Shown: positions 40,718 through 63,329 of the stretch, piece after piece
Layout: each line of letters starts with the position of its first letter
Position numbering within the stretch: the stretch's first letter is position 1
From: Flectonema sp. DT1601
Taxonomy: Eukaryota
Reading direction: 5' to 3'
NCBI GenBank assembly: GCA_964019425.1
Contig: OZ025784.1
Coordinates: forward strand, 310,001-374,000
DNA length: 64,000 nt
The notes under the pieces: model-generated
The model's input: only the letters and a program-made list of their open reading frames with translations
What the model was told of the DNA's origin: nothing
The model's database searches: none
Position numbers and translations under genes: made by a program

Positions 40718-40741
40718 GATGTAAAAGAAGAAATCTTTTAA

Positions 40742-40802
40742 GGGACCACACAAAATGCCTCCACGCGGCGGTCTCGGACGGCTGCGGCCGACAAAAAATT
40801 GT
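40742..40802 (+). ncRNA. HDV-like self-cleaving ribozyme candidate at the 5' end of retroelement family A
   Basis: P1 GGGACC/GGTCTC, P3 GCC/GGC, L3 TCCACGC, P1.1 CC/GG, P4 CGGC/GCCG, catalytic C40792 followed by AAA; P2 ACAAAAT/AAATTGT has 2 mismatches. Confidence 0.7.
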
Positions 40803-40900
40803 AGGGATGAAGCGATATCAACGGACATCATGAGATCTGGTCAAAAGGAAAGACGAATTCAGCAGGAACAAGCTTCTATAATTGGTCATTAGAAGCTGCC

Positions 40901-43900
40901 ATGGAAGTATTAAACGAGCCCCAGCAGATAACGAGACCATTGAGCTCATCCTCCCCAGATATTATTGCTCTGGATAATTCAATGATGGCAAACATAGGAC
41001 TGCTAAATGGATGGAGTAGCGACCATCTTCCAATAAGTGTAAAGATTGAAAACATACACTTGACGAAAACCAAACCACAATCGAACGAGATGTGGCAATG
41101 GAAATGGAAGTGTGCAAAGTGGCATGCATACTCGGAGGTTTTAACGACGGCGGCAACGAAGTTAAAGAATATTGAAACAGTGCAAAAACTTGCAACAAGG
41201 ATCTCTGTAGAAATTCTGAAGGCTGCGAAACAAACCATACCGGGCTATAAGAAAAGGACGCAAACCACCTTCTCAGTGAGGGATCCAGAAATAGAAAGAC
41301 TGCTTGATGAACCCAACCAGGACAAAGTTGACAAGGATGCCATTGCGGAAGGCATCAGAAAAATTAAAAGAAACATCATCGAATGTGACATGACTGGGAT
41401 GGACTACCAATGGGCTTTCAGAAAAGTAAAGCAACTTGAAGGGGGCATTGTTGATAATAACATTAGCGAATTAGAACATGAAGGCAGTACAACAACTGAT
41501 CCAAAAGAAATGGCAGACATATTTACCACGGCATACGCGACACAATTCAATCTGGTAGACGACGAAGTGCCCTCCTTGGTATTTGAGAACAAACCAGGGG
41601 ACGAAGGCAATGAAGAATTCACAATGAGAGAACTAAAGCGACAGCTCAAGAAATTAAAAGACAAGAAAGCACCCGGGTCGGATGGGGTGTGGAACACTAT
41701 GTTAAAGAAACTCCCAGAAACATTTATGGTGCAACTCTTACGGCTGTTCAACATGACTTGGGAAAAGTCGGCGGTTCCGAGATCTTGGAAGTATGGGATA
41801 GTAGTTCCAATCTTAAAATCGGGAAAAGACAAGAAACGTGTACTCTCTTACCGACCAATAACATTGACGTCAGCAATAAGCAAGTTGTTTGAGAAGATGA
41901 TGGCAGAAAGGATGCATCATTTACTTGGAGACAGAATGAGTGCGCGGCAAGCCGCATATAAAAGAGGGCGCAGTGCCGTAGAAAATCTCTGCATGATAAC
42001 AGAGAGACTACTAGATGGAAGGTACCGAGGTAGGGAATCGATGTTAATGACGTTTGACCTGCAGAAGGCATTCGATGCCGTCCAACCGAAAATTCTACTG
42101 AAGAGGATGTCTGAAGTTGGGATACCGGCGAAATACACAAGATGGGTCCAGAGCTATTTGACTGGGAGAAAGATCACAACCAGAGTAAACGGCGAAAAGG
42201 GAACATTCAAACACATACAAGTTGGAGTACCCCAAGGAAGTGTCCTAGGACCACAGCTATTCTCGATATACATCGAAAGCCTTATACGAGAATTGAATAG
42301 GTATAAACCAGCAGTCTTTGCAGATGATGTTGGGCTCGTGATGACATCTCCAGATGTTAAAGGACTGGAGGACAAAGCTAACACAGCAGTACGCATCTTC
42401 TCAAATTGGGCCGCGGCATCCCACATTTGTATAAACAAGAGCCCGGGTAAAACAGAGTTCATACATGTGAGGCCGGATACCGATAGCCAAGAAAATAAGT
42501 CTCCACAAGTGCTATACCCGGAGGGGCACACCTTCAAATATGTCGTCACAACAGCAGAGGCCATCCGAAAAATGCTAAATAATCAGGACTCAACTACTAT
42601 AGGCAATTCTAAAAAGGCGATAACACATTTCTATGTGGTTCCGCAGCATAAAATAAAACGAAAATTACCGACGACAGAAACTGTATTGGTAGACATGCAG
42701 ATGGAACCTAGTAAATGCTCACAACTGCAAAAGGTTCGCACCAGAGGAGACATCCTGAGGATGCTACAAGGAACTGGATCTGGTCTCAAGGCTTTTGCAT
42801 TTTCGGTGGTGGACAAACTACATGAAACGGATGTAGTAAGATACTTGGGAGTTCTGTACGACAAAAACCTCGACTTCAAAACTCACATGCGAAAGATGAT
42901 GACGGCAGCCTCCAGAGGACTGGGGCTCCTGCTAAGACTCTCCAGGATGGGATGCAGGAAGAGAACCCTCATCTGTGTGCTGGTGACTGTTGTAATGGCG
43001 AGAGTGCTCTATGGGGTTGAAAGTTTTGCCTGGCTGCTGCCAAAGAGAGGTGACGTCAGTCTTGAGAGGCTAAACATCTTAATAAACAGAGCCGCTAGAC
43101 AGGTAACGGGATGTCTGCCAAGCACCAGACTGAGGAACTTGTACCATGAAGCAGATATGCCGAAATTACAAGAACACATACGCTACAAGATGTGTAGGGC
43201 CTATGAAGAATTCAAATTAAGTCCCCACCTACCAGCTTGTAGCCTCACAATGACGGAGGGAGGCCTAAACTACCCACCAAAAACAGCTTGGGGTCGCATA
43301 GTTTGGGATGAATATGTGTCGGGGATCCCGGGACTCGACAAACACAGAAGCTCGTATCACTCGGAAATCAATCCAAAGCACTATAAGATGCGATCATGGA
43401 AGGTAACTAATGCAATGGAATTCAATTACTGTTTTGGAAAAGAAGAGGCAAAAGACAAAGAAGCCGGTCTACCAATTGAAGACGTGAAGGTGTACACAGA
43501 TGGGTCTATTAGACATAGGACGAAGACGTACATGACCAAGTCAGGAGCATCTGTGATAATAGTGAAGGGTAAGGAAGTTAGCATGACCGGATTCAGAATA
43601 CCTGTAGCAGGAAGCTCCTACAGAACTGAACAGATAGCCGTGGAACAAGCGATGAGAATACTCCTGAAAAACAAAAAGGCATCCGAAGGAATACTTCCCA
43701 CAACAAAGACGCATATTCTAACTGACTCAATGTCGCTAATACAGGCACTTGAGCGAGGACCTGAAGAACAGAAATCTGCTACAAATGCATCAATCTGGAA
43801 GTTAGCACTGAAACTGGAACACAGAGGTGTTAATATTAACATGCAGTATGTCCCGGCACATATGGATGTGCTGTATAATGAAATAGCAGACAAGGTGGCA

Positions 43901-44386
43901 AAACACGCTGCAGGTACGATAAAGAAACCTCCAGATGACAGTGTGGTACTCGAGAGTTTAGTTACTAGACTGGATATGGGAACCCTTATGACTTTTCACA
44001 AGAGAAGAAAACGAGAGGAGTGGATTGGAGCCGGCGAACAGAGGCATCCACCTTTTGTAGAAGAACTGACGAGACCACAAGAAGTCCTAATGTCCCGCTT
44101 CAGAGTTGGACACTGTAGATCTCTTAAACTAAAAGGAATAAACGAACAGTGCATCTTCTGTCATGGAGATACTGCAACACCGCATCATGTGCTTTTCAAG
44201 TGCAACCACTGGTGTATCCAAAAGATGAGATCATTGTACATACACAGCATGATTAATACCGAAACTGGTGAAGTAGTGAGTAAAGTAGTGGACTGCTTCT
44301 TAAAGGAGAATCAACGCAGCATGTCCAACTTTGTAGTGGTACTGGACCAAATAGCTGAAATGCTCGGAAGACCTGGAAATCCATAA
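40901..44386 (+). CDS. Family A Pol: partial APE + RT + RNase H + Zn finger (Ingi/I-group-like)
   Basis: SDHLPI, KAPGSDG, SYRPITLTS, GVPQGSVLGP, FADD, RYLG, VYTDGS, YVPAH, RFRVGH..CIFC..HVLFKC. Confidence 0.92.
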   Translation: MEVLNEPQQITRPLSSSSPDIIALDNSMMANIGLLNGWSSDHLPISVKIENIHLTKTKPQSNEMWQWKWKCAKWHAYSEVLTTAATKLKNIETVQKLATRISVEILKAAKQTIPGYKKRTQTTFSVRDPEIERLLDEPNQDKVDKDAIAEGIRKIKRNIIECDMTGMDYQWAFRKVKQLEGGIVDNNISELEHEGSTTTDPKEMADIFTTAYATQFNLVDDEVPSLVFENKPGDEGNEEFTMRELKRQLKKLKDKKAPGSDGVWNTMLKKLPETFMVQLLRLFNMTWEKSAVPRSWKYGIVVPILKSGKDKKRVLSYRPITLTSAISKLFEKMMAERMHHLLGDRMSARQAAYKRGRSAVENLCMITERLLDGRYRGRESMLMTFDLQKAFDAVQPKILLKRMSEVGIPAKYTRWVQSYLTGRKITTRVNGEKGTFKHIQVGVPQGSVLGPQLFSIYIESLIRELNRYKPAVFADDVGLVMTSPDVKGLEDKANTAVRIFSNWAAASHICINKSPGKTEFIHVRPDTDSQENKSPQVLYPEGHTFKYVVTTAEAIRKMLNNQDSTTIGNSKKAITHFYVVPQHKIKRKLPTTETVLVDMQMEPSKCSQLQKVRTRGDILRMLQGTGSGLKAFAFSVVDKLHETDVVRYLGVLYDKNLDFKTHMRKMMTAASRGLGLLLRLSRMGCRKRTLICVLVTVVMARVLYGVESFAWLLPKRGDVSLERLNILINRAARQVTGCLPSTRLRNLYHEADMPKLQEHIRYKMCRAYEEFKLSPHLPACSLTMTEGGLNYPPKTAWGRIVWDEYVSGIPGLDKHRSSYHSEINPKHYKMRSWKVTNAMEFNYCFGKEEAKDKEAGLPIEDVKVYTDGSIRHRTKTYMTKSGASVIIVKGKEVSMTGFRIPVAGSSYRTEQIAVEQAMRILLKNKKASEGILPTTKTHILTDSMSLIQALERGPEEQKSATNASIWKLALKLEHRGVNINMQYVPAHMDVLYNEIADKVAKHAAGTIKKPPDDSVVLESLVTRLDMGTLMTFHKRRKREEWIGAGEQRHPPFVEELTRPQEVLMSRFRVGHCRSLKLKGINEQCIFCHGDTATPHHVLFKCNHWCIQKMRSLYIHSMINTETGEVVSKVVDCFLKENQRSMSNFVVVLDQIAEMLGRPGNP

Positions 44387-44617
44387 TTTAAAGATGCGGT
44401 TCTTAGACCAAATGAGGAAGTAAACTGAACTCTTTAGTAATTGATAAACAAAGAAAACAAAGAAGATACGAAGCCTACGGGAACCCCCCATCCCATCCCC
44501 AATCCCCACAAAAAGAAAGTTTACAGAAGAAAGAAAGAACAACCGCGCCTAACAGCGCAAACAGCAAAGCAGGTCGAAGGAACCTGCTGTGCACACAAAA
44601 AAAAAAAAAAAAAAAAA

Positions 44618-47600
44618 GCAAGAGGACGACCAGCTAACCGGACGCTCTCTAGCAAACAAAGGAACAAGCTTGCTCACACGATCAACGGAAATGGGCCTAA
44701 GATAGAAGAAAGGGAAAGGCTGGACCGAGACAACACCCGGGTAGACCGGGGAGAAACGAGGAAGAAACCGGCGGAGAGGAGACTCAAGAAGCAGCAAGAG
44801 GACCAGGAGGAAGAGAGGAAGGAGCTGCTCAGCAAACATGAGCTCCTTGAAGCACAACAAAAGAAGCTGGACGAGCAGCACAGGCAGCAACAATTAGATC
44901 TCTTTCAGGAAAAGCTCCAACTGGAACAAGACTTGGAGGATCACAAGAATCAACAAGTGGAGAAACAACAACTACTGGAACAACAACACCAGCAGCAGCA
45001 GCTTGAGCTTCACCAAACGAAGCATCAGATGCAACAGGAACTGGAGAACCAACAACAACAACAGCATGAAAAGCAACAACAGCAGCAACAGCAACTTGAT
45101 CATCAAGTCCAACAGCAGCAGGAAATTCAACAGCAGCAGCAACAGCAACTTGATCATCAAGTCCAACAACAGCATCTAAACCATCAACAGAGCCAAGAAC
45201 TATTTAACCAACAACAGCAAGAATTGCTTAAGTTCAAGGCAGACCTCCAACAAAAACAGGAGATAATCCTGAACCAACAGCAGCAACTCGAACAGCAGCA
45301 CAGCAAGGAGAAGGATATCGAGAGAGAGTCTCTCCGCAGGAGAAGATGTCAACTCGAGGAAGACCACCGTCAACAGCAACTTGAACAGTCCAGGATTCAA
45401 CAGGAACTGCAACTGCAACAGACAAGCCTGGAGGAAAAACAGCATCTGCTACAACAGCAATTTAATGTGGAATTGGAAAAGGGTAAACTGGAGTTACTGG
45501 ACTTACAGCAACAACTGGAGAAGAAAAACCAGGAAGGTCTGAAGGAGCAGGAGGTGGCTCTACAGCTTAAACAACGGCTGCTTATCGAACAGCACAACAA
45601 GGAGAAGGAGGACGGGAAGCAGGAGTTATTGGTCCTGCAACAGCAACTAAGCGAGCAACGTCTGCATGATCAGCAGCAACAGCAACAGAGAAGCGAGGAG
45701 TTAAAGAAGCAAGAAGAAGACCTCGAACTTCAACGACTCCAACTGCAACGCCAGCAGGAGGATGAAATGGAGAAGGGCAGATATGAGCTCCAGAGTCTCA
45801 GGGACATGCTGGGTATGGAGTTTGAGGAACAGAAGACGTCACTAAAAATCCTAGGGGATAATCTTCGCCATCAGCAACAACAGCTCCAGCAACAACAGCA
45901 AATCTTCCAAGAAAAAGAAGAACGACTTGATCAGTACTACGTACACCAGCCTTATGCCACCGACACCAACTCCCACTACCAACTTCCTCAAGACCCCCGG
46001 TTTGATGAACTTCAGAGGGAGCTACGTCAGGAACGGGCTGAGAAAGGAGAACTTAGGGAGCTGCTGAGATCTCTTCAACACCAACTGAAGGAAATGACGC
46101 AAGAACTTAACTTGCAGAGAATGGAAGCTCAGGAGCAAAGGGAGGCTGCCAAGAAAGAGTCACTAGGAATGCAAGCCCGCTACCTGCAGGAATTACAAGC
46201 GGAGAGAGCTCAGGTGAAGGAGCTCAATCACTTGAGGGCGGATGAAGATGATGTTGCGATGGCAGTCGTACAACGGGAAGTCGCATCGGATGAGAATCTC
46301 CATCTGAATATGATGCGTGAACTGGAAGGGGACAGGAAAAAGAGCTCGAAGGTAATTACTGAAGCTCAACTGTCTGAGAGGGAGGGTCTTAGGACTCAGA
46401 TGACGAAGGAGGAGGGTAAGCTTGCACTCGTTCAAGGCAAGTTCGAAAATGATGCCCTGAAGGAGGAGGCTTTGGTGACGAGACTGGAGCTGGTGCCGGA
46501 GTACTGGCCGGATAACATGGTGTTATCAGAGGCTAGCTACAAGGCTGGTGGGAGAGGAGTGTACCTCACAACCACGAAGGAAGTAAGAAGGAGAATGGCT
46601 GGGGCTGAGCTGGGTGCCTGGGAATCGCTGACCTTGGTCACGTTGTTTCCCCCTACGGATAAAGCGAAGGAAGTGCAGGTCGTGTTGAAGGTGAAGACTG
46701 ACGATGGGGTGAAGAGATCTCTGAGGAGGCTGTGGCTATCAGCCCTGGGTAGGGAGGTCCTCCCAAAAGGAACGGATATCAGTGCGACGGTGAGAACGAG
46801 GGAACTGGTTGCTCGGTTGGACAAGAGATGGGCCGAGGAGAAGAGATGGTTGGAGGTGAAGCGTTCTCCGATGAAACTATCCCAGGAACTGAAGAAGTTA
46901 CCGGGGTACGTTGATACCTACAACGCTAGAGTAGGTGATCAACAAATAACGGTCATGCTGCGGGTAAAGGAAACGGAGGTGAAGAACTTCCTCAGGGAGT
47001 CAGGGAAGGAGGGCACCTTTACCAAAGAAAGAGATCACCTGGATGAGAAGGCAGTGAAGGCATCTGTTCTGTGGCTGCCGAAGGATGACACCCTCAGTTT
47101 GGCGAGAGACAAGGCGGAAGAAGTTGAGGGAGGTCTAGGGTTAGTGCTTAACGAGTATGGCCTTGGTATAAGGGTTAACAGTTGGCATGAGAAGGCTGCG
47201 AGGGAGATGTTGCACCTGCCGGCGAAACTTCCGGAGACCAGGATCTCGGGAATCCCAATAGGAACTTCGACGGATGAAGCGGTGAAATACCTCATCTCGA
47301 GGGAAGGATGGGAGGTGAGGAAGATGAAGGATGGTGTTCGGAACGGGATGCGGTGGATGGTCGTGCGTGGTCCCGAGAGGGATGGCGAGACTGTCACCAT
47401 CGACGGAGTCCTTTGTCTACTCGAGCCGATGAAGAAGAAGGTGGTTGCTCCTGTGAAGTCGGTCAAAGTAGCCCCGAAGGTGAAGGAACAGAAGCCGGAA
47501 AAGCGAAGGGATCCTTCGGAGGGCACGGACAAGTGGTATACGCGTGTGGAATTCATTGCGTACCACGGTAAGAAGAAGGGAATCCGTCTGTGGGGGGAGG

Positions 47601-47782
47601 CATCGCAGAACGCACAGGAAGCTTCGGTGAAGCTGGAATCGGTATCGACCCCTGAACAGCAGAAACAGAACAAGAAGGAAAAGAATACACCTCCAAAGAA
47701 TGATGAACGGAAGAAGTGTTCAGTCGAGGATAGACTGGAACGTCTTGAGCGTCTGCTCTTGTCGCTTGTAGGGAGCAAGTGA
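44618..47782 (+). CDS. Family B ORF1 (Gln-rich coiled coil, gag-like C-terminal half); 5' start unclear
   Basis: Frame is open from the junction with no ATG for >130 codons; long Q/E-rich region; ends in TGA at 47780-47782. Confidence 0.8.
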   Translation, partial: ARGRPANRTLSSKQRNKLAHTINGNGPKIEERERLDRDNTRVDRGETRKKPAERRLKKQQEDQEEERKELLSKHELLEAQQKKLDEQHRQQQLDLFQEKLQLEQDLEDHKNQQVEKQQLLEQQHQQQQLELHQTKHQMQQELENQQQQQHEKQQQQQQQLDHQVQQQQEIQQQQQQQLDHQVQQQHLNHQQSQELFNQQQQELLKFKADLQQKQEIILNQQQQLEQQHSKEKDIERESLRRRRCQLEEDHRQQQLEQSRIQQELQLQQTSLEEKQHLLQQQFNVELEKGKLELLDLQQQLEKKNQEGLKEQEVALQLKQRLLIEQHNKEKEDGKQELLVLQQQLSEQRLHDQQQQQQRSEELKKQEEDLELQRLQLQRQQEDEMEKGRYELQSLRDMLGMEFEEQKTSLKILGDNLRHQQQQLQQQQQIFQEKEERLDQYYVHQPYATDTNSHYQLPQDPRFDELQRELRQERAEKGELRELLRSLQHQLKEMTQELNLQRMEAQEQREAAKKESLGMQARYLQELQAERAQVKELNHLRADEDDVAMAVVQREVASDENLHLNMMRELEGDRKKSSKVITEAQLSEREGLRTQMTKEEGKLALVQGKFENDALKEEALVTRLELVPEYWPDNMVLSEASYKAGGRGVYLTTTKEVRRRMAGAELGAWESLTLVTLFPPTDKAKEVQVVLKVKTDDGVKRSLRRLWLSALGREVLPKGTDISATVRTRELVARLDKRWAEEKRWLEVKRSPMKLSQELKKLPGYVDTYNARVGDQQITVMLRVKETEVKNFLRESGKEGTFTKERDHLDEKAVKASVLWLPKDDTLSLARDKAEEVEGGLGLVLNEYGLGIRVNSWHEKAAREMLHLPAKLPETRISGIPIGTSTDEAVKYLISREGWEVRKMKDGVRNGMRWMVVRGPERDGETVTIDGVLCLLEPMKKKVVAPVKSVKVAPKVKEQKPEKRRDPSEGTDKWYTRVEFIAYHGKKKGIRLWGEASQNAQEASVKLESVSTPEQQKQNKKEKNTPPKNDERKKCSVEDRLERLERLLLSLVGSK

Positions 47783-50700
47783 CTTGATGGGCGGGATTGG
47801 GCGGAAACGCGAAGGCGTCTTCTGCTACTGGCGGGTGACGTAGAGAGGAATCCGGGACCGAGACGCCGTCATGATGGACCCACTTCGGAGCTGCGAGTTA
47901 TCAGCTGGAACTGCAGAACGATCAACGGAAGAGAGGAGTTCATAGGAAATATCCTGGGAAAGTACAACCCTGATGTATTATGCCTGCAGGAAACCTCAGT
48001 TCGGAAGCCTCTATATCACTGGAATTACATCACGTACAGGAGAGATAGACCGGGTAGAGGTGGCGGTATAATCACCATGGTGAAGAGAGGCCTTCAGCAT
48101 GCTTGCTATGAAGTCTGTATCCCTTCGGTTAGAGGAATTGTTGAGACATTGGGTGTCAGGATTAATGATGAGATAAATGTTCTTAACGTGTATTCGCCGC
48201 CAAGTTCTAAGATAGATTTTGATCTCTTCCCTTTGAAGCGTGATGAAAGGTTTATATTTGCTGGTGACTTCAATGCTCATCATAAACTCTGGTCGAAGAA
48301 GACGGATACGAAGGGCTGCCAGCTTCTAGAGTGGTGCAGATCTAATAACCTTCTAATTGCAAACGATCCGGGATTTGTGACGTTGCCGAGACACGGTACT
48401 TCGCCGGATGCAATCCTACACCACGAGGAGTTACTACTACTACACTTCGGGCTAATAGGTGATGGCTCTGAACATGGATCTGATCACTTACCTCTTGCTG
48501 CTGTCTTTGATACGTTCTCACCTCTGGAAACAGTTAACAACCAGGCATCGAAAAAATCAGTCTGGGACTTTAATACAGCTGATTGGTACTCGTTCCGTCA
48601 TGATTTGGATTACCGATTTAGCAAGGTGAACAGTCCTCCGAAGGTGGGTATCAGGGCGGCAACATTTAACCGTATCCTGCTTCATGTGGCGAAGAAGAAC
48701 ATCCGCAGAAGGCTCAGGATCCAGGGTAAGAGGAGGAGAATGTGGAATTCCTCAACCCCTGAGACCAAACAAGCGAAGGGAAAATTCGTTGCTGAGAAAC
48801 TTGCACAAGGTGAAGGTTTTGCATTCGCCTTTAAGAAGATAAAGGACTTGGATGCCGATGGGGGACAGGACGTCCAAATCCCTGAATTCAGTGAGGACCA
48901 ACTCCCCAGTAAATTTCTCGATCAGTTCGTTAAGACCTCTGTCAGGAAACGACTGAAATCTCCGAAGCTGAAGCCAAGTGATTACGTAGGTGCTTGTGGA
49001 CCTCTGGTGATGTCTGAGCTTGAGCGCGCCATCAAGAAGGTTAAAGCTGGTAAGGCTCCTGGTCCTGATGGAATCCACGGGGCGATGCTGAAGAACCTTT
49101 CTGCAACCGGTAGACGTTTTCTCTTAGCGGTGTTCAACGACTCCTGGCTCTCAGCTAGAGTTCCGAAGGTCTGGAAAGAGGGTATGATCAAACCGGTATA
49201 CAAACCGGGTAAACCCAAAGAAAAGCTATCCAGCTACAGACCGATCACGTTGACATCTGTAGTCGGTAAAATGCTTGAACGGATAATTTACGACAGGCTA
49301 ATGTATTGGTTGACGTCAAATAATGCCTTGTCCTCCATTCAGGCAGGTTTCAGAAGGGGTAGGAATACTTGCGAGCAAATCTCACTGCTGGTCAACGCGC
49401 TTCATGGTGCGAGAAAAGGTGGCAAGAGTTCGATACTGCTCTCTTTCGACTTCACTGAGGCATTTGATAGGATAAATCATGTTAAACTGATTGCTAAAAT
49501 GGTGGCGATGGGGATTCCTTCACCATTCATCGGATGGGTCGCTAACTTTCTGACGCGAAGGAAGGCAAAGGTTAGTGTCAATGGCAATCTGAGCGCATAC
49601 AGAACTGTGACGAAAGGTGTTCCGCAAGGGTCGATTGTTGGGCCTCTCCTTTATCTGATATATGTCGACGACCTGGCTAAGAAACTTGAGAAGACCGGAT
49701 GTGTTTCAGCACTCTACGCAGACGACACAGCTTGTGTGGTTTCGAATAAGGATTTTAAAGTAACTTACCGAATGGCGCAATTAGTCCTTGGGTTAGTAGA
49801 TCGTTGGTGCAAAGATAATGACATGGCACTGTCGGTTTCGAAGACCTGCGGGATGCCGGTGGACTGTCCTAGGAATATGTATTGGAGGCTGGGATTCCCC
49901 AGAACGTCAGGAGAGAACTTCTTTCGGATCAGTAGGGAGGAACTGGCTGGGATGATTCGGTCAAATGAAGAAGGTAGGCCATTACTTGGAAATGGGGCGA
50001 TGATCCTCAAGCTGGGTGATACGGAGGTTACGAAGGCAAGTGAACTTCTTGAACTGATGCCAGTGGGTCCGGATCCGACCTGGGTGAAGTTGCTGACTGC
50101 CGTACTCATGCCGATGGTGGATAGTGTTAAGTACTTGGGTGTACATATTGACGATGACCTTACATATGGTACACAAGTGGATAAACTACTGGATGAGACG
50201 AGGAAGGGACTTGTTCTGCTTCGAAAGTTAGAGCCATTCAACTTTGATTTCAAAACGCTGAACATGATCAAGAACTTATACATCCTCTCAAGGATTCTGT
50301 ATGGGCTTGAGAGCTATGGACCTTTCCTGACAGATGAACAGCTTAAACCTATTGACCTGAATCTGAGGAAGATAGCTAGAAAGATCACCGGCTGCGGCTT
50401 CAACACAAGGTCCCTTCCGTTACTGTGGGAGGCGAACATACTCCCGATGAGACTGCAGATTGAGAAGCAAGCCAGGATTGCTCTATTCAGGTATCGGTCA
50501 CTGGATTGGGTTCCTTCTACGAAGGGAATCGCTAGTGGAACTTGGAGTTCAACTTTACCGGCCGAGGACCGAAATATGGAGATCCAGGGGATTGTCATGC
50601 CTGACAGCATCGAGCCATGGATAGATGTTCCGAACCTGGAGATATCTTGCGGATATGGACATTCGAAGACCGGTGTTGCTGAAGTGGACAAGGCTAAGTT

Positions 50701-51646: not shown

Positions 51647-51952
51647 CTGATTGGTAGTTGCTAATTCATTAGTATCATTCTCCCTTATCACACTCCTTAA
51701 TCATCTCCTAATTTCTCTGAGGACATCCACAGAGCTTCATGGCTCGTAGGTAACCCAGTGGTCTTTGGCCACCGTCCCTGTACTGATCCTTCGCTTTATA
51801 TTAACTGTGTCTTGAGATTCCTATCCGGGGAAGTCCTCCAACGGACTCAGGACAGTTGCGCTTGTTTTTACTTGTTTACTTTATCAAAAAATAAGAAGGG
51901 CAAGAATGCTCAGAACGAAGAAAAATAAAGTGGAAAGACAGGGGGGATGTGA

Positions 51953-51988
<36 letters not shown>

Positions 51989-52008
51989 AGAAACTTTTTA
52001 TTATTATT

Positions 52009-52606
52009 GGATCTCATCACTTACTTAGAATTAAAGAAGTTCCTCGGATGTGTCTCTTTTGTCAAAGAACGGAGTCTTCACCACGTCATCTGATACTGGA
52101 ATGCACTGCTGCGGCGCTGATGTACATTCGAAAAGGAACTATTGGTGAAATTATTGAGGAAGCAAGAATCTCGAAGACTGCCTTGAGTCTTCCGTTCATG
52201 TTTGCTACACGTAACTTGCATGCCCTTGCCGGATTCATATGGAACATGGAGCAATGGGTTCAAACCTGACAGCACTCAGCTGTAGTTAAACAAGTCAATA
52301 CTATTATCTTTTAGTATACATCTTCTCCATTCTTTCTCCTTATCTCCTAATTCTATGAGGACAACCGTAGGGCCCTTTCGGCTCGCAGGTGACCCAGTGG
52401 TCTTTGGCCACCGTCTTTACGTTGATCTCTCGCTTTGCAAGCACAGTGTCAGGAGCTGCCGATCCGTGGAGGTCCTCTAACGGACTCCTGACAGTTGCAC
52501 GCGTATCTTTGTCTTGTTAAAAAAAATAAGAAGAGCGTTGGTGCTCAGAATATAAAAAAAGCAAAATGAAAGAGAGACAAGAAAGATGTGACAAAATAAA
52601 AAAATA
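52009..52606 (+). mobile_element. 5'-truncated copy B2 of a B-related subfamily
   Basis: GSHHLLRIKEVPRMCLFC..MFATRNLHALAG matches the B1 C-terminus; homologous 3' UTR and A-rich tail. Confidence 0.85.
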
Positions 52607-52671
52607 AAGAAATCTTTAATTTAAATTCTAAAGAAATAATATTTCTTTTTATTATTATTTTCTTTTTTCTT

Positions 52672-54288
52672 GGTGTTGAAAGCTTTGCTTGGATGCTACC
52701 AAAAGAGTGCTTCGAACAACTGGAATTACTGGTAAACAGGGCAGTGAGGCTGGTAACTGGATGTCTGCGGAGCACCAAACTACAGAGACTTTACAAAGAA
52801 GCCGATACGCCAAGACTAAAGGAACACATCCAGTATAAGATGTGTAGAACTTACGAACGTTTCAAATTGAGTCCGTTCCTACCGACTCGCAAGCTGACGA
52901 GAACAGGGAGTTCAGAATTATACCAAAAATCAAAATGGGGATGGAATGTCTGGATAGACTATGTCTCTGGTGTCCCTGGCCTTGACAATTACCGGAGCAT
53001 TACCAACCTGGAAGTGAACCCAGAACACTACACTCTCCCTCCATGGAAAAGTACTAGTGCGATGAGATTCACATATTCAAGTAACAAGGAAGAGGCTGAA
53101 CAGCGAGAAGCTGAACTACCAACTCACGAGATGAAAGTCTACACTGACGGGTCGATAAGACACAAATCCGAGACTTACATGACAGACTCGGCTGCCGCTG
53201 TGGTCATAGTAAAAGAAAGCAAGATGCGTCTACTTGGATATAAAATACCAGTAGCGGGTTCCTCTTATAGGACCGAGCAGATTGCAGTAAAACTGGCGTT
53301 GGAAAATTTAGTTCAGGTGGCGGAGGATGAACATGAATCTCTAACAACAACGACGCACCTGTTGACTGATTCGATGTCAGTCATGCAGGCATTGGAACAA
53401 GGGCCATATAAACAAAGGTCCCCAATGAACAAAAAGATCTGGAAGTTGGCAATGAAACTGGAGAAGAAGGGAATCCAAGTCAACATGCAGTATGTACCGG
53501 CACACAGAAACGTGCGGTACAACGAAGTAGCGGACCAACTGGCGAAATTCGCTGCAGGCCTGAAGGAAGATCCACCTCACGAAGATGTTATTATTAAACA
53601 ACTGCCGACTCAACTTGACATGGGAACATTGATGACGTTTCACAAGCGGAGAAAACGGGAGAACTGGATCGGACCGGGAGAGGTAAGACACCCTCCGTAC
53701 ATCGAAGCTCTAACACGACCAGAGGAAGTACTGATGTCACGCTTTAGAGTGGGACATTGCAGATCTCTGATAATCAAAGGACTGAACGAGATGTGCTTTT
53801 TCTGTAAACTTGGAAAGGCGACAGCACATCATGTATTATTTATATGCGAACATTGGTGTATAGAAACCTTGAGAGAAAAATACATCAGTCACATGATGAA
53901 TGACAAGGGAGAGGAAGCATGCCAACTGGAGGACTGCTACTTACCTGCGAATCAACAGCAGATGACTGGTTTTGTCACAACCTTAGACAGACTGGCACAA
54001 TTATTAGGACGGTAGTATTATTAAAACATCGACATTTCGAATATCAACATTGAAGGCATCATTGCAACACATCTGAAGTCGTCCAAGTGGACAAATTATT
54101 CTGTAGTATTAGTTTTAAGTTATCAAAACAAAGAAAGGAGATACGAAGCCTACGGGATTCCCACCCCCAACCCCCAAAACAAAGAAAGTAAGAAAGAAAG
54201 AAAGAAAAAGAACAGCCGCGCCTAACAGCGCAATCAGCATCACAGACTCACGGGTCGTGGTGCACTCAAAAAAAAAAAAAAAAAAAAA
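52672..54288 (+). mobile_element. 5'-truncated retrotransposon family C (A-related); coding remnant 52672-54015
   Basis: GVESFAWMLPK..VYTDGSIRH..RFRVGHCRSL is colinear with family A; shares 3' UTR motifs; poly(A) at 54268-54288. Confidence 0.88.
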
Positions 54289-54317
54289 TCTTTTTTCTTT
54301 TAAATTTATAATAAATA

Positions 54318-55231
54318 ACAACAAAGACGCATATTCTAACTGACTCAATGTCGCTAATACAGGCACTTGGGCGAGGACCTGAAGAACAGAAATCTGCTAC
54401 AAACGCATCAATCTGGAAGTTAGCACTGAAACTGGAACACAGAGGTGTTAATATTAACATGCAGTATGTCCCAGCACATATGGATGTGCTGTATAATGAA
54501 ATAGCAGACAAGGTGGCAAAACACGCTGCAAGTACGATAAAGAAACCTCCAGATGACAGTGTGGTACTCGAGGGTTTAGTTACTAGACTGGATATGGGAA
54601 CCCTTATGACTTTTCACAAGAGAAGAAAACGAGAGGAGTGGATTGGAGCCGGCGAACAGAGGCATCCACCTTTTGTAGAAGAACTGACGAGACCACAAGA
54701 AGTCCTAATGTCCCGCTTCAGAGTTGGACACTGTAGATCTCTTAAACTAAAAGGAATAAACGAACAGTGCATCTTCTGTCATGGAGATACTGCAACACCG
54801 CATCATGTGCTTTTCAAGTGCAACCACTGGTGTATCCAAAAGATGAGATCATTGTACATACACAGCATGATTAATACCGAAACTGGTGAAGTAGTGAGTA
54901 AAGTAGAGGACTGCTTCTTAAAGGGGAATCAACGCAGCATGTCCAACTTTGTAGTGGTACTGGACCAAATAGCTGAAATACTCGGAAGACCTGGAAATCC
55001 ATAATTTAAAGATGCGGTTCTTAGACCAAATGAGGAAGTAAACTGAACTCTTTAGTAATTGATAAAGAAAGAAAACAAAGAAGATACGAAGCCTACGGGA
55101 ACCCCCCATCCCATCCCCAATCCCCACAAAAAGAAAGTTTACAGAAGAAAGAAAGAACAACCGCGCCTAACAGCGCAAACAGCAAAGCAGGTCGAAGGAA
55201 CCTGCAGTGCACACAAAAAAAAAAAAAAAAA
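54318..55231 (+). mobile_element. 5'-truncated family A copy A2
   Basis: Near-identical to 43700-44613 (about ten substitutions counted by eye); poly(A) tail. Confidence 0.92.
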
Positions 55232-55273
55232 TAAAAAAAGAGAGAAATGATCTTTGTCAAAACCTTTTATTTA

Positions 55274-55288
55274 TTCTGTACTTTATTG
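55274..55288 (+). other. Spliced-leader (SL) relic
   Basis: TTCTGTACTTTATTG equals the 3'-terminal 15 nt of the kinetoplastid/diplonemid-type SL exon; lies 20 nt before ATG 55309. Confidence 0.75.
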
Positions 55289-55308
55289 ATTTCCAATAAT
55301 TAACAACT

Positions 55309-57010
55309 ATGACATTGGATCCAGGCCTATTTGGCCTGATGCTGGAGAAGATGGTGGGCATGCTCGGTGAGATGCAGAAGGGTTTGAATGTAAAGGGGTT
55401 ACTAAACGCAACGGGGGAGAGAAGCCATCGGTGGATTTATCGCCGATGAATGAGGAATGGGCGAGGGTTTGCGGCCCAAGGTAGTGAAGCGCAAGCCTGA
55501 GCCGGCTCAAGCGCTGAATTCGTTTAGTGGACTGAAGGAGGTCCGATGTGATGGGAAGGCAGCAACTAATTTACCGAATGTGCAAGAGAAGCGGTGGGAC
55601 TGCCAACTCCGTGATGATGACTGGTCTGTTCCAATAATTTCGATGTCAGGCGTGTTTAACACGTCGATTACGTGTGGTGTGTCACTGGGCACGGCCTCTG
55701 ATGTAGATGCGATGATTAAACTCCGACCGGGAAACCTCTCGGTAATTTGCAAGAAAAACCCTGGGGGCGGTAAGAAGATACAGTTCCCGGCGGTGGTAAA
55801 CGACGGTGTGCTGACACATCGGACCGGTTGGATTGTATCAACCGGGAAACCAGCTACCCTCTTCCGTGGAGACGCTCTGACTGCCGGTGACAATCGAGTG
55901 GTATTGTTCCACCACCACGCGCTCCACTCCAACGACAAGGTACCTTCACCTAATGAGTTGTGCAAGAAGGCTTCTGACTACTACACAGCAGTCACGAACA
56001 TGCCCATCGAGCCGCACCTCTTGTGGCCTGCCAACAAGAAGGAATCAGACCCTCATGTTAAGTCTGTGAACATGAGGGTGCCAGCAGACGCTGTTGACGC
56101 CTTGAGAAGGGCAAGTGGGAGTGGTGGGTACTTCTTATCAGTGCCGAATTTCGCAGACACAGCACCGTGCAGGTCGTCAATCCAGCTCACGGTGGATTTT
56201 AAGTTAGCCTCATCGCTAGCCGGTGAACTCCGGTTACCTCTGAGGTTCTACCGCCACTCACGCAAGCTGGGGATTGTGTGTCTGAAGACCGACGAAGATT
56301 ACGTGCGATCGAAGCTGGGTGAGAATGCACTGCCGCCTCCACCTGAAGGCCTCAAGTTCTGTTTGAGGAGCCGAGCAATTGATGCGATGAGTTCGCTGGA
56401 AGTAGTGCAGGTCTGTGCTCACCAAGGGTGGGAGATTAACGTCGTTGCTCGGTACAGGGGCAGAAAGGAGCTTCCTAAGATGATTGTAGTGGCCAAGGAG
56501 AAACCCAAGAGTAACTTCATCATTCTTCGTGATGACATGATCACAATCAAAGAGGTGGGTCTCGGCAAGCAGAATCCCGATAAGATGGACCTGGACGAGT
56601 TTCCTCACCTCTGTCAACCTAACGCTGCGCCATCTGTTGGAATTGATTTATCACCACCGCCTGTTTCTCAGCAAAATCAGCAAAATCAGCAATATCTGCA
56701 GACGCTACAATCGAACAAACAGCAGCTGCCCCTACCGCCTTCGCAGTACAACTGTCAACAATCCGACATTTCTAAATTGGTATCGCAGGTTACTGAACTA
56801 ACGGCTGCTGTGAAGAGTCTACGGCAGGACCTTGCTGAAGAGAGGGATGCGAATAGATGTCTTCGAAAGGAGATTGAGTCCCTGAATAACGATAAAGGAT
56901 CGGGTTCTCAGAGGCTGACGGTCTCAAGTAGGCAACGAGCTAACTCTGTTGCTGCTACTAAGTCTGAAATGGCTGACCGGAATGAGAAACGGGACTACTC
57001 GAGGAATTAA
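55309..57010 (+). CDS. Family D ORF1 (main open part 55457-57010; N-terminus probably frameshifted)
   Basis: 517-aa open frame with C-terminal coiled coil; ATG 55309 follows the SL relic but is out of frame with 55457. Confidence 0.7.
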
Positions 57011-57027
57011 CAACCACTTCCAATTGA

Positions 57028-60000
57028 CTCTTTATTGGGCCGTCCTTGGAGTACTATTATTCTGTGAGTGGGCTTCTGGAACTCTATCGTAGTGGTTTTC
57101 CGAGACACCCTGGTCCGATGTCTGATATATCGCCGCTGAGAATACTTAGTTGGAATGCGCTGTCGATGGTAAAGCACCATGAATCTCTGGTACGGCTCGT
57201 TCAATCGGCTAATCCTGACATCCTCCATATTCAAGAAACTTGGCTCACTGATCTGGTTCTTGATGAACAGATTCAACTTCAGGGATACACCTGCTTCCGT
57301 AGGGACAGAATCAGATTAAATTTTGATGGCAAGGCAAAACGCGGTGGTGGACTGGCGACTTTCTGCAGGGACTCCCTTGTGGTCAGGAGATTATCGGATC
57401 CAACTGAGCGTAATTCACCGTTTGAGGTGTTAGTTGTCGAGGTAATGACAGATATCGGTCCGATTACGTCTTCTAATGTGTATATTCCGCAGAATTTCTT
57501 GGTGCCGACCTCTGTTGTCTTCGGTGAAGTAGTATGTGGAGATTTCAATGCTCACCATCGGTCGTGGTCGAGGGTGGTTCCAACAAGTAGTTCGTCGCGA
57601 GGTCTGTCAGTTCTTGATTGGATTAACGGAAATGGACTGCAGATTTGCGATGTTCCGCTGGATACAAGACCTTGTTCAGAGACTTCACCTGATTTGTTTC
57701 TTGTCGACAGCAATATTGAGGTGTTGAATGTACACCAGTACAGTGCGTCTGATAGTGGGTCCGACCACACGCCAATAGTGGTTGACATCTCGGTATATCC
57801 GGGCTGCTCACAAATTACCACTCCCGCTCACCGCCGCTGGTTCTACAACAAGTTCGAGGATGAGCACTGGGTCTCATTTCGCGTGCTAACTGAAGCGCGA
57901 GCTCATCGTTTGGAGGGGATGTCTAATGTGAACAAGCTTGGATGTGAATTTATTAGTCTAATTGAGGAGGTGGCTATTGAAACGCTTCCAAACAAATGGT
58001 TCAAATCTGATACGAAGCGGAGGAAGAAATTACCTAAGCTGAGACCTGATCTTATTGCGAAAATTGGTTCTTCAAAAGGAGCGGCCTGGGCCTTCGACAA
58101 GCTGCGGGAACTCAGGGGCGGTCGGTCCAATTCAAAGGAAGTTCCGGTAGCTGCTGATGATTTACTCGACCATTTCTTTGGTGATTCAAAATCCTCACCG
58201 TTATTAGTTCCTGATTCGAAGCCTGCTGATTATGATGACTCAAGCTGTGGTTCTTTTTCGATTCATGAGTTATACACGGTACTGAAGTCATTGACTCCCT
58301 CCCACGGGTCTGGTTTAGATTCTGTTTCTAATAATATGCTGCTTAACTTGGGTCCCCGTATGCTCCTACTATTGCTTAGACTCGCCTCGCTATCTTTCAG
58401 GAGGGGTATCTTTCCCTCTTGCATGAAAAAGGCCAAGGTGATTATAATTCCGAAGGGAGGGGATCGTGACCCGCTTCTTCCGTTTTCTTACAGACCAATC
58501 TCTTTGACGTCAATTGTTTCGAAGTGCTTGGAGTCGCTTGTGGGTAATCGATGTGAACATTTGTTGGAGGGGAAGTTGGACCCTAGGCAGTCTGGTTTTA
58601 CGCCGGGCAGAAATGTAGAAGAGAACATCTCGCTATTGGTGGATGCGGCTTCCGGTGTGCAGAAACTCTATGATGGTTATGGAGCGATCATCCTCTTTGA
58701 TATCTCTGGGGCATTCGATAACGTGGATCATCAAATACTCGTTGATAGATTGGTAGCTGTCCTGCCGGTTCCGTATGTTAAATGGCTTGCGAACTATCTT
58801 TCGGATAGAAATGTGAGTCTGTCTCTGGGATTAGATAGTGGATCCAGATCGTGTACGAAGGGGGTCCCTCAAGGATCTGTGCTTGGTCCTCTCTTATTTC
58901 GGATCTTTGTCGACTCCCTGCCAGGTCTAATAAGTGATGCTGATCTCAGTGTTCTGTTTGCTGATGATCTTGCCGTGTTTCTGCAACATGAGAAGATAGA
59001 TGGGATCGAAGCGAAGGGCCTGTCCGTCATCTCTCAGATAGAAGGTTGGATGGTTTCCTCTAAGATGGAGGTAAACATGAAGAAAACAGAGTACGTTGCC
59101 TTTGGTAAGCGCATCTCTGGCTCCGATGTCGAATGGAGTAGGGCACCTCGCTTTTACTTCCCATCGTCTGTTGAAGAGTTACACATGCCTACAGGCTCTG
59201 CCGGTGCTCTCACTGAGAAGCTTTCTCCATCAATAGGGGCAGTTCTGGATCTCGCTGATGCTTTGCTGCCACTGGAGATTGATGGTTACCCGGTGACGAG
59301 ACGTTCTGACTTTGTCCGACTGGCCTGTGCTCGTAAGAGCAAAGGGTTCAGGCTGAAAGCAGCGATCCCGCTGAAACGTGTCAGGAGCGCGAAATACCTA
59401 GGAGTTATCATTGATGACTCGCTATGCTTCGACGAACAGGTGGATAAGATTGTGAAAACAATTCGAGCTGGTTGCGGTTTACTCAAAATGTTCTCTGCCT
59501 ATGAGGTCAAAACTGATACCCTTCGTCAGCTTGTAGATGGTGCAGTGTTATCTCGAGCGTTCTTTGGACTAAAGGCCTTTTCTCCCTTTTTGTCTGATGC
59601 TCAGATCAAGCGGATCGAAGCGTGCTTGCGTCATCTACGGATAAGACTCACTGGTTGCTCGTTCTCGACGAAGGATGTGGTGCTCACAGTTGAGTCGCGA
59701 ATTCCACCGCTGCAACAAACGATATCTAGGCTCCTTGCCCTAGTTCATGAAGATTTGCTAAGGCGACAACCTGAATGTCCTTCATGGAGGCTGTTTAACG
59801 GTGGTGAGAAGAAGAGACCATGGCAGACTAGAGTTGAAGCCTGTTCCTCGGAATTTTCTCTGTCAGAGCTTAGGTCCCAGAAAGTTCTGCCACATCAGTA
59901 CCCTCCGTGGTCGAAGCATCCTCCTTTGGTTGTAAACACGTCCTGCGGTTATGACAAGACTGACACACCTGAGGAGAAGTATACTGTGGCGATGACGACC

Positions 60001-61165
60001 CTCAATGAACTGCCCCCGTGTGTTGCTGAAGTCTACACTGATGCCTCGGTCTTCCATGACGAGGAGCGGGGATTATTATGTGGGGGGGCTGCTGTTCTGC
60101 TAGTTGCTGGCAAGGTCATTGAGAAGCTCTCCAAGTTCCAACCGTCCCTCACGATTTACAATGCAGAACAACTAGCACTATTGTCAGCCCTTGAACTACT
60201 AGAGGAGAATCTTCATGTTGTTTCGCATGGCGTGATTCATATTTTCAGTGATTGTCAGTCGGCGCTTGCCTCCCTGCATAGGGGGCCATCCAGGCAGTCA
60301 TCATCAACAAATCGTGAGATTTTTGAACGCTCAGTGCTTCTTGATAGGCCGTTGATTTTCCAACATGTCCCATCTCATTGTGGCATTGCAGGGAATGAAC
60401 TGGCTGATACACTGGCAAAGAAGGCAGCCTTGCAATCAGTTGACCCTGAAAACTCCGTATGATTTCAGGATGGCTCAATGTTGTATTAAGAAACAAGCAA
60501 ATTGGAAGGCTATGGGTACTGTGGACTCTTCGCATTCATACAGCAAAGCGACTCTAGGATCTGGCCCTCAGCGTTTCCTTCCCTGTCTCACTAGGGGGCA
60601 GGAGGTAGAATTGTCTCGTCTGCGAACCTCTCACCACAGGCTTGTAAAGCTACCGAGGGTCACTGCGGGCTTTAAATGTTGTCTGTTTTGTGGCTTTCAG
60701 GATACCTCAACTGAGCATCTGCTGCTTGAATGCGTTGAGACCAGGGAATTAGTAAAGCAAACCATGAGATTTCCGACACCTGATGATGAGCTATCTCTGG
60801 ATATGTTCTTTCGAACCGAATGGCAGCCTTTCACGTTGTTATTGATCAGCAAGCTTGATAATCATCTTAAAGAGTTATCTGACAATCCGTTGTTGTTGAA
60901 GTTTCCGCTTCAGGGTATTTTTGTGAGGAAGAAACTAATCACACACATCGAAAGGAAGACAAGTTTCTCGCTACTGGGTTCTGATGTGAAGAAATATGTT
61001 ATGGAACTTATTGATAACGCTTATAAAGCTACCGATTTAAATGTTGTTATTGACGACCTTTCTATGGTTAATGTGCTGGTCAATCCTAGCTGGTCGGAAT
61101 CCAAGCTTTCTAAGTTCCTCTCTCGCCTAAGTCGCCTCCTGCGAAGTAATCCCCGAGGTAGATAA
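57028..61165 (+). pseudogene. Family D ORF2: APE-RT-RNase H, frameshift at ~60450, then Zn finger and C-terminal extension
   Basis: ILSWNA, IQETWL, GDFNAHH, SDHTPI, GVPQGSVLGP, FADD, KYLG, VYTDAS, HVPSHCGIAGNELAD; RLRTSH..CLFC..EHLLLEC continues in the +1 frame after the A-run in GAAAACTCC. Confidence 0.85.
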
Positions 61166-61464
61166 TGAACGTCTCTTTCCTCTGGTGTAATTTCTTATTT
61201 TATTTATTAGTATCATTTCTATTACTTATCATTACTTTATTTCTTATTTTCTGATCTAATGTGGCGTGTTCTCCCTCTCTTTGGCGAAAATTGGCGTTAT
61301 CAGCCGTCTCTAACACTGTCTGCTCGCGTGGACGGTGGGTTTAGGTAGTCATTTGTTCCAGGTTATTCTACGTCTCTTATCGTCTGTGAGAGTCTCACGG
61401 TTGCTGGTAGCGATATAACTGTTACTCTGTGAGCTTTTCCTGGCTTTTGGCTTCCTAGGCTTCG

Positions 61465-61497
<33 letters not shown>

Positions 61498-61499
61498 CA

Positions 61500-61761
61500 G
61501 GGACCACACAAAATGTTTGCTCGGAAGACCTGGAAATCCATAATTTAAAGATGCGGTTCTTAGACCAAATGAGGAAGTAAACTGAACTCTTTAGTAATTG
61601 ATAAAGAAAGAAAACAAAGAAGATACGAAGCCTACGGGAACCCCCCATCCCATCCCCAATCCCCACAAAAAGAAAGTGTACAGAAGAAAGAAAGAACAAC
61701 CGCGCCTAACAGCGCAAACAGCAAAGCAGGTCGAAGGAACCTGCTGCGCACACAAAAAAAA
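61500..61761 (+). mobile_element. Mini family A copy A3: first 16 nt of the ribozyme fused to the 3'-terminal ~240 nt
   Basis: GGGACCACACAAAATG (same as 40742-40757), then near-identity to 44361-44596, then A8. Confidence 0.85.
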
Positions 61762-63315: not shown

Positions 63316-63329
63316 TCTTCAACTGCTGG

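What the first reader, a model, noticed from the sequence alone, without database searches (positions are those of the whole stretch)
40718..61761. tRNA-gene-anchored stack of diverse non-LTR retrotransposons (candidate new tRNA-targeting system)
Seen: starting 24 bp upstream of the tRNA 5' end and pointing away from it, seven copies (A1, B1, B2, C, A2, D, A3) sit head to tail without nesting, while no such element is recognisable in the preceding 40 kb. Established: position-specific insertion upstream of tRNA genes is known for Dictyostelium TRE5 and yeast Ty1/Ty3, and Ingi/L1Tc-type APE-RT-RNase H elements are not known to me as tRNA-targeted. Inference: several divergent families repeatedly insert at the same Pol III-defined site, pushing older copies outward, which fits the decay at the distal end.
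Basis: partly seen in the sequence, partly recalled or inferred. Interest (0 to 1): 0.9.

Follow-up and report, generated by a model that had tools for sequence, protein, structure and literature searches.

The report
Retrotransposon stack beside a diplonemid tRNA
Eight copies of LINE-type jumping genes from three distant lineages sit in one direction right in front of an alanine tRNA gene in a likely diplonemid (marine flagellate), and their duplicated landing sites show that they arrived one after another at nearly the same spot, likely guided there by the tRNA gene as known for social amoebae.

Summary
The host is probably a diplonemid. Eight same-strand APE-RT-RNase H non-LTR copies lie in 40742-62022. 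The head 24 bp from tRNA-Ala is the HDV-like-ribozyme 5' end of B1, not of A1. A1 is nested 72 bp inside B1, and A3 is nested in a missed eighth copy, B3. Target-site duplications (B1 16/17 nt, B2 15 nt, C 11 nt) come from the tRNA flank, not from poly(A). Peeling them back gives the order A2, C, B2, B1, A1, at 62, 44, 32, 22-24 and 93-96 bp from the tRNA. That is a window, not one fixed site. Junction-spanning proteins show similar stacking on 7 other contigs, twice into a B1 head. It works like Dictyostelium TRE5/NLTR-B but uses ingi-related lineages. Whether the tRNA is the anchor genome-wide could not be tested (no genome held), and a sister family sits in LRR genes. My searches found no report of this for Euglenozoa. 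This scan noted similar stacks in fungi, on other DNA. New variant of a known kind; interest 0.6.

The parts
40646..40717 (-). tRNA-Ala(TGC) gene with A and B boxes and a T5 run after its 3' end; the proposed anchor
40718..40741 (.). 24-bp AT-rich flank; 40723-40739 is the 5' copy of B1's target-site duplication
40742..40813 (+). 5' head of B1: predicted HDV-like ribozyme overlapping ORF1 codons 1-20 (ATG at 40755)
   Evidence: only hit of a strict HDV-type descriptor on both strands of 64 kb; weak Rfam CPEB3 match starting at 40742, 17.2 bits, E 0.22, below gathering; 100% to P0503 residues 1-20
40814..44617 (+). A1: 5'-truncated A-family copy (lacks residues 1-131 of 1321; part APE, RT, RNase H, CCHC-type motif), A21 tail, nested in the B1 head with a 4-nt duplication (40810-40813 / 44616-44619)
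44618..51986 (+). Body of B1: Q-rich ORF1 to a TGA at 47780-47782; in-frame ORF2 47783-51646 with a 2A-like motif (47837-47860), APE, RT, an RNase H-like region and a CCHC-type motif; A32 tail
   Evidence: Pfam RNase_H was not scored for this ORF2 but was for its Flectonema relatives
51983..52008 (.). 3' copy of B1's duplication (51983-51998; 16 of 17 nt, partly overlapping the tail) and 5' copy of B2's duplication (51994-52008)
52009..52644 (+). B2: 5'-truncated copy of a second B-group family (100% to P0244 residues 1163-1248), with its 3' UTR and an AT-rich tail region
52645..52671 (.). 3' copy of B2's 15-nt duplication (52645-52659) and 5' copy of C's 11-nt duplication (52661-52671)
52672..54288 (+). 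C: 5'-truncated C-family copy (residues 859-1305), A21 tail, followed directly by its 11-nt duplication at 54289-54299
54318..55231 (+). A2: 5'-truncated A-family copy (residues 1094-1321), A17 tail; only a weak 5-6-nt duplication
55309..61492 (+). D: near-full-length two-ORF copy (ORF1 from ATG 55309, with frameshifts; ORF2 57118-61165, one frameshift near 60451), (TAAA)7 tail; its true 5' end (55232-55308) is not resolved
61500..61515 (+). First 16 nt of a B-type ribozyme head (B3)
61518..61761 (+). A3: last 244 bp of an A-family copy, A8 tail, nested in B3 with about 480 bp of B3 missing
61762..62022 (+).

Best explanation
Eight non-LTR retrotransposon copies from three distant lineages lie in one orientation upstream of a tRNA-Ala gene, their duplicated target sites show successive insertion 22-96 bp from its 5' end, and they were likely steered there by the RNA polymerase III machinery bound to the tRNA gene. 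Shown: the anatomy, the orientation, the duplications of B1, B2 and C, and the nesting of A1 in B1's head. Deduced from those duplications: the order A2, C, B2, B1, A1 and the distances 62, 44, 32, 22-24 and 93-96 bp. Each new copy lands either in the short flank (pushing the stack outward) or in the first tens of bases of the resident copy (nesting). Inferred from general non-LTR biology: integration by target-primed reverse transcription, and release of B-type RNA from a host read-through transcript by the 5' HDV-like ribozyme. Inferred by analogy with TRE5-A and untested: tethering to TFIIIB/TFIIIC. B-group copies sit closer (22-32 bp, n=2) than A/C-group copies (44-96 bp, n=3), which would fit lineage-specific offsets.
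For: (1) The duplications abut 5' ends that tblastn with intact proteins fixed independently: B2 starts at 52009 and C at 52672. B2's 15-nt exact match has an empirical null frequency of about 0.003, C's 11-nt match about 0.01. (2) 3 of 7 post-tail junctions resemble the tRNA flank (score 18 or more) against 4 of 118 host poly(A) runs (Fisher p 0.003). (3) At each of five steps 6.8-17.5 kb of resident element DNA was available, yet the insertion fell within about 100 bp of the tRNA; the uniform-null product is about 1e-10 (the window was chosen after the fact). (4) C, B2 and B1 landed in front of 5'-truncated, headless copies in AT-rich DNA, and A1 landed in the more GC-rich head sequence. Neither an element head nor one shared sequence motif that I could see explains all five; distance from a fixed left-hand landmark does. 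(5) Among 144 same-assembly family proteins checked, 21 have a foreign N-terminal extension. Five records from other contigs read through a poly(A) tail into the next element (P0222, P0236, P0247, P0494, P0508), and three more appear by eye to start in another element's 3' UTR (P0440, P0277, P0512). These eight lie on 7 other contigs, told apart by length. (6) Of 12 B1 ORF1 records, 7 reach the N-terminus. Three of them, this window's included, are cut by another element's tail at codons 8, 9 and 20 of 1073, and one has repeated heads. (7) Precedent with the same geometry: TRE5-A, 5' end facing the tRNA 5' end, window 23-181 bp, TRE-TRE tandems (PMC5391098 passages).
Against: One tRNA locus only. 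No genome is held, so no second tRNA-element junction was seen, and none of the 21 N-terminal extensions matches the translated tRNA region of this window beyond 4-5 residues. The tRNA also sits at the end of a run of 11 of 11 long + strand ORFs, so position and orientation fit a polycistron-end landmark as well. A sister family (ORF1 55% identical to B1's) is fused, ribozyme-like head first, into BspA-type LRR genes in 2 of its 6 records (P0498, P0521), so not the whole group is tRNA-bound. The A1 and A2 duplications are only 4-6 nt, and the 5' ends of D and B3 cannot be placed (62 to about 135 bp). In the protein collection the host RFC, the 3.7-kaa gene, A1 and B1 ORF1 are on record on a 367,346-bp contig, while C, A2 and D are on a 1,369,261-bp contig. 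The join across B1 therefore rests on this window and on B1's 16/17-nt duplication.
Confidence: 0.6

Rival explanations
1. The landmark is the end of a polycistronic transcription unit, or the open AT-rich chromatin there. The tRNA merely marks the same boundary, and orientation reflects co-transcription with the upstream unit.
For: 11 of 11 ORFs of 300 aa or more in 1-40 kb are on the + strand, like the elements. In D. papillatum, gene clusters are separated by TE-rich repetitive regions (PMC10161547 passages). The ribozyme head suggests processing from read-through RNA. 62-64 kb is a mosaic of repeat fragments.
Against: The 1.1 kb between the last ORF (ends 39532) and the tRNA 3' end holds no element. 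The five placed insertions cluster within 22-96 bp of the tRNA's first base, on its promoter-upstream side.
Confidence: 0.25
2. A sequence- or structure-defined hot spot, as for ingi/L1Tc in RHS genes: the endonucleases prefer a local motif or the ribozyme heads of resident elements.
For: Two B1 heads on other contigs are hit at codons 8-9. A sister family joins two LRR genes at the same repeat position. L1Tc has an upstream consensus, and RHS genes carry one or more elements at a hot spot (PMC5814959 and PMC7563717 passages).
Against: The five duplications start in different sequence contexts (compared by eye, no motif search run), three insertions preceded headless copies, and RTs only 34-38% identical share the site.
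Confidence: 0.1
3. Elements insert into the poly(A) tails of older copies, or the stack is an assembly chimera of repeats.
For: A second record of these proteins splits the stack between two contigs at B1. Several junction proteins elsewhere run straight from poly(K) into an element.
Against: B1, B2 and C are each bracketed by flank-derived, non-poly(A) duplications that chain the tRNA flank to B2, C and A2. A1, C, A2 and D, frameshifted D included, are on record letter for letter as proteins.
Confidence: 0.05

Closest known systems
TRE5-A (Dictyostelium discoideum)
   Same: Non-LTR element upstream of tRNA genes, 5' end facing the tRNA 5' end; window 23-181 bp with a peak at 47; later copies form tandems (PMC5391098 passages).
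   Different: TRE tandems typically do not nest (same paper); here 2 of 8 copies do. Here three lineages at 34-38% RT identity share one site, with RNase H, a ribozyme head and a 2A-like motif. The host is a euglenozoan. Dependence on the B box or TFIIIB is untested here.
NLTR-A (D. purpureum) and NLTR-B (P. pallidum)
   Same: Non-LTR elements with RNase H downstream of RT, 2-6 bp and about 50 bp upstream of tRNA genes (PMC5006619 section 9).
   Different: No NLTR sequence was available, so relatedness was not tested. The section read reports no deep multi-family stacks.
ingi / L1Tc clade (trypanosomatids)
   Same: APE-RT-RNase H with a C-terminal Cys/His motif, a 5' HDV-like ribozyme, a 2A sequence, poly(A), target-site duplications and tandem clusters (PMC5814959 passages). 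An Angomonas APE-RT protein falls in the same part of the quick RT tree.
   Different: Ingi-clade elements lack ORF1 (PMC3894237 passage), while B and D have one. The C-terminal motif here is CCHC-like against C2H2 in L1Tc. The passages read describe insertion by a sequence motif and RHS hot spots, not tRNA position.
Ty3 / DGLT-A and Ty1 (LTR elements at tRNA genes)
   Same: Position-specific insertion upstream of tRNA genes through Pol III factors (PMC5006619 section 11).
   Different: These are integrase-based LTR elements; the copies here are poly(A)-tailed with an APE endonuclease.

Membership tests
APE-type non-LTR retrotransposons | APE endonuclease plus RT, 3' poly(A) or simple-repeat tail, 5' truncation, target-site duplication | tested here: met
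   Pfam on window ORFs and intact copies; tails and duplications
tRNA-upstream-targeted non-LTR elements (TRE5/NLTR-B behaviour) | 5' end faces the tRNA 5' end | tested here: met
   all element matches in 40742-62022 are on the + strand, the tRNA on the minus strand; one locus
tRNA-upstream-targeted non-LTR elements (TRE5/NLTR-B behaviour) | Repeated insertion in a narrow window upstream of the tRNA gene | tested here: met
   5 of 8 copies placed, at 22-96 bp; D, B3 and A3 not placed exactly
tRNA-upstream-targeted non-LTR elements (TRE5/NLTR-B behaviour) | Genome-wide association of copies with many tRNA genes | not testable with these tools
   no genome held; run X1 does not cover the unique flank; 68 metagenome loci are only 26-42% identical
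tRNA-upstream-targeted non-LTR elements (TRE5/NLTR-B behaviour) | Dependence on the B box / Pol III factors | not testable with these tools
   needs a retrotransposition assay
TRE family (descent) | RT groups with dictyostelid TRE or NLTR elements | not tested
   no TRE or NLTR sequence was among the fetched proteins used in the tree
Ingi/L1Tc clade | APE-RT-RNase H architecture | tested here: met
   A, C and D score Pfam RNase_H; B1 ORF2 does not reach it but its Flectonema relatives do
Ingi/L1Tc clade | 5' HDV-like ribozyme | tested here: inconclusive
   B head fits the descriptor and weakly matches Rfam CPEB3, below gathering; P2 has two mismatches; 5' ends of A and C are absent and D shows no hit
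Ingi/L1Tc clade | 2A-like sequence before the APE domain | tested here: inconclusive
   present in B1 (DVERNPGP) and in P0125; degenerate in D; not seen in called A and C proteins; activity untested
Ingi/L1Tc clade | Single ORF, no ORF1 | tested here: not met
   B and D have an ORF1; unknown for A and C; feature taken from PMC3894237
Ingi/L1Tc clade | RT groups with named ingi/L1Tc | tested here: inconclusive
   no named ingi or L1Tc sequence at hand; the three lineages share an SH-aLRT 88 group with a long-branched Angomonas protein in a quick tree, and the careful tree did not finish

The most novel reading that the evidence does not exclude
Diplonemids harbour a radiation of ingi-related retrotransposons in which three anciently split lineages all dock on the Pol III complex of tRNA genes, each at its own offset (B about 20-30 bp, A/C about 45-95 bp), and build multi-family stacks of 20 kb or more. 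This would be tRNA-gene targeting by non-LTR elements in Euglenozoa, with a sister family retargeted to LRR genes, and with B making ORF2 by UGA read-through followed by 2A release.
Probability: 0.3. Interest if true: 0.8.

Novelty: new variant of a known kind. Interest (0 to 1): 0.6.

Why it matters
Position-specific tRNA-upstream targeting by non-LTR elements is described in print for dictyostelid amoebae (PMC5006619, PMC5391098). Eight literature searches returned no report for diplonemids or other Euglenozoa; the library lacks most subscription papers. A case in a distant supergroup, in relatives of the trypanosome ingi/L1Tc elements, would be a further independent origin. It would also let one ask how elements with unrelated ORF1s (B versus D) reach the same target. 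The chain of duplications is an unusually readable record of insertion order at one site. Safe-harbour targeting by non-LTR elements is also of interest for gene insertion tools.

Tried and rejected
Own genome: not held. Sequencing runs: one holder, X1; no RNA holder listed. X1 contigs cover element parts at depth about 1-3 and not the unique flank or any junction that names a neighbour, so this says nothing on expression or empty alleles. Metagenome scan: 68 loci at 26-42% identity, with 0 tRNA genes in the 60 of 68 scanned; they are distant and mostly short, so not informative. Viral contigs: no relative; the exact B-head pattern is absent from viral and prokaryote collections. The protein atlas gave no answer. 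The fold of a B-group ORF1 C-terminal part from an 8-row alignment had mean pLDDT 41, so no fold search was run. B and D ORF1s show no similarity and no Pfam family above its cut-off. The careful RT tree did not finish; 2 of 64 rows were dropped for short RT matches. Rejected: my own first reading that A1 and A3 are internally deleted A elements keeping an A-type ribozyme head; searches show the head is B-type.
Full report
Host and setting. The first 39.5 kb carry 11 uninterrupted ORFs of 300 aa or more, all on the + strand. Among them are RFC, an EF-Tu-family GTPase, a BspA-type LRR protein, 6PF2K and kynureninase. The best RFC relatives are Diplonema ambulator (70%) and D. papillatum (66%), and the closest outside relatives of the elements come from the Flectonema neradi transcriptome. 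The host is therefore probably a diplonemid (inference). The window's only tRNA gene, Ala(TGC), is at 40646-40717 on the minus strand.

What is there. Intact family proteins from what appears to be the same organism (ENA records without names; 90% clusters of 39 for A, 74 for B1, 26 for the B2 type, 91 for C and 25 for D) let me set boundaries independently of the junction sequence. From the tRNA outward: B1 head (40742-40813), A1 (40814-44617), B1 body (44618-51986), B2 (from 52009), C (52672-54288), A2 (54318-55231), D (ORF1 ATG 55309, tail to 61492), B3 head (61500-61515), A3 (61518-61761) and a B3 fragment (61762-62022). Intact B1 ORF1 starts with the 20 codons found at 40755-40814 and continues with those at 44618. 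So A1 is nested in B1, and A3 in B3. All pieces are on the + strand, and no such element is found in 1-40,700.

Order and distance. B1 is bracketed by a 16/17-nt duplication of the tRNA flank (partly overlapping its tail), B2 by an exact 15-nt duplication and C by an exact 11-nt one. The B2 and C copies end at the base before the element. The empirical null gives about 0.003 and 0.01 for matches of 15 and 11 nt. A1 and A2 have only 4-6-nt duplications. Each 3' copy chains into the next element's 5' flank, so removing elements in turn gives the order A2, C, B2, B1, A1 and distances of 62, 44, 32, 22-24 and 93-96 bp from the tRNA's first base. D's 5' end is unresolved, so D, B3 and A3 are placed only between about 62 and 150 bp. 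With 6.8-17.5 kb of resident element DNA available at each step, a uniform null gives about 1e-10 for five hits in a 100-bp window (window chosen after the fact). Insertion into poly(A) tails is excluded for B1, B2 and C.

Elsewhere in the genome. No genome is held, so I read junctions through mis-extended gene calls. Of 144 family proteins, 21 have foreign N-terminal extensions. Five from other contigs read through a poly(A) tail into the next element, and three more appear to start in an element 3' UTR; together they lie on 7 other contigs. Of 7 B1 ORF1 records that reach the N-terminus (12 in all), 3 are cut by another element's tail at codons 8, 9 and 20 (the last is this window), 1 has repeated heads and 3 are intact. 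Stacking and head-nesting therefore recur, but none of these records shows a tRNA. Only 15 members per large cluster were listed, so these counts are a sample. Against generality, a sister family sits head-first in BspA-type LRR genes in 2 of 6 records. The collection also places the left part of this stack (RFC, the 3.7-kaa gene, A1, B1 ORF1) and the right part (C, A2, D) on different contigs. I cannot explain that; B1's duplication supports the join in this window.

What the elements are. A, C and D score APE, RT and RNase H. B1 scores APE and RT, its Flectonema relatives also RNase H. All five end in a CCHC-like motif. RT identity is 64% for A-C, 77% for B1-B2 and 33-38% between the A/C, B and D groups. 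In a quick tree of 62 rows the three groups lie with an Angomonas protein (SH-aLRT 88; long branch), and A/C and B each have Flectonema sisters. The B head is the only match in 64 kb to an HDV-type descriptor and gives a weak CPEB3-ribozyme match starting at 40742. B1 ORF1 ends in TGA; in frame follow a 2A-like motif and APE, with no in-frame ATG, GTG or TTG until residue 99. All 12 B1 ORF1 records end at the same stop. These are ingi-like traits, but B and D have an ORF1, which the Ingi clade lacks (PMC3894237). I therefore call them ingi-related, not members.

Mechanism. The fixed landmark lies to the left of the stack. Insertions preceded headless copies and also entered a GC-richer head, so neither element heads nor one visible motif explains them. 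The most likely landmark is the Pol III complex on the tRNA gene, as for TRE5-A, which needs the B box and whose ORF1 binds TBP in vitro (PMC5391098); I put this at 0.6. The main rival is the end of a polycistronic unit that coincides with the tRNA (0.25); one locus cannot separate the two. Tethering, ribozyme activity, read-through and 2A skipping are inferred, not shown.

Literature seen. PMC5006619: abstract and sections 9 and 11. PMC5391098, PMC10161547, PMC5814959, PMC3894237, PMC7563717 and bioRxiv 10.64898/2026.07.29.740908: passages found by term. PMC3185411 and PMC4035085: search listing only. Supplements were not read; the repeat section of the D. papillatum supplement could bear on novelty. 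HDV ribozyme element names (P1, P2, P3, L3, P1.1), the 2A consensus and CRE/SLACS motif resemblances are recalled, not from a call. Searches gave no report of tRNA-targeted non-LTR elements in Euglenozoa. Four unchecked notes of this scan describe similar LINE stacks in fungi; I did not test them and do not count them as support.

Verdict. A real, well-documented serial-insertion site with TRE5-like geometry in a new supergroup and element group. The genome-wide test that would make it a tRNA-targeting system is still open. New variant of a known kind; interest 0.6.

Noticed in passing
window 47780-47860: B1 ORF1 ends in TGA-C followed in frame by a 2A-like motif and APE with no in-frame ATG for 98 codons; the stop is shared by all 12 B1 ORF1 records. 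This suggests stop read-through plus 2A release, or a non-AUG restart. Related families P0125, P0272 and Flectonema P0124 have a called Met start before the motif.
   Followed up: partly
P0498 and P0521 (other contigs): A sister family is fused, ribozyme-like head first, to two different BspA-type LRR genes at the same repeat position: a possible RHS-like coding hot spot, or one insertion followed by gene duplication.
   Followed up: partly
window 62023-64000: Mosaic of short repeat fragments in both orientations: a roughly 210-bp tandem duplication (62778-63198), a degenerate rDNA piece (63219-63590), B-type, C and B2 fragments, and a minus-strand RT-like piece at 62426-62899 resembling CRE/SLACS by recall with no Pfam hit. 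A repeat graveyard or assembly noise.
   Followed up: partly
window 40742-40813: The predicted ribozyme overlaps the ORF1 start codon and first 20 codons, so the same bases serve as RNA structure and coding sequence; the N-terminal peptide is conserved in P0496 and P0497.
   Followed up: partly
window 28430-39532: A 3,700-codon uninterrupted ORF with a signal-peptide-like start and hydrophobic end, no Pfam family, and a singleton 90% cluster: a giant surface protein of unknown family.
   Followed up: no
window 18440-18524 and 19872-19956: An 85-bp inverted repeat pair at 95% identity about 1.35 kb apart, around a more GC-rich stretch without a long ORF; possibly a non-autonomous DNA transposon.
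   Followed up: no
window 367-44383 versus 52693-60459: The protein collection records the left and right parts of this window on different contigs (367,346 and 1,369,261 bp), with B1 ORF2 on two contigs.
   Followed up: partly
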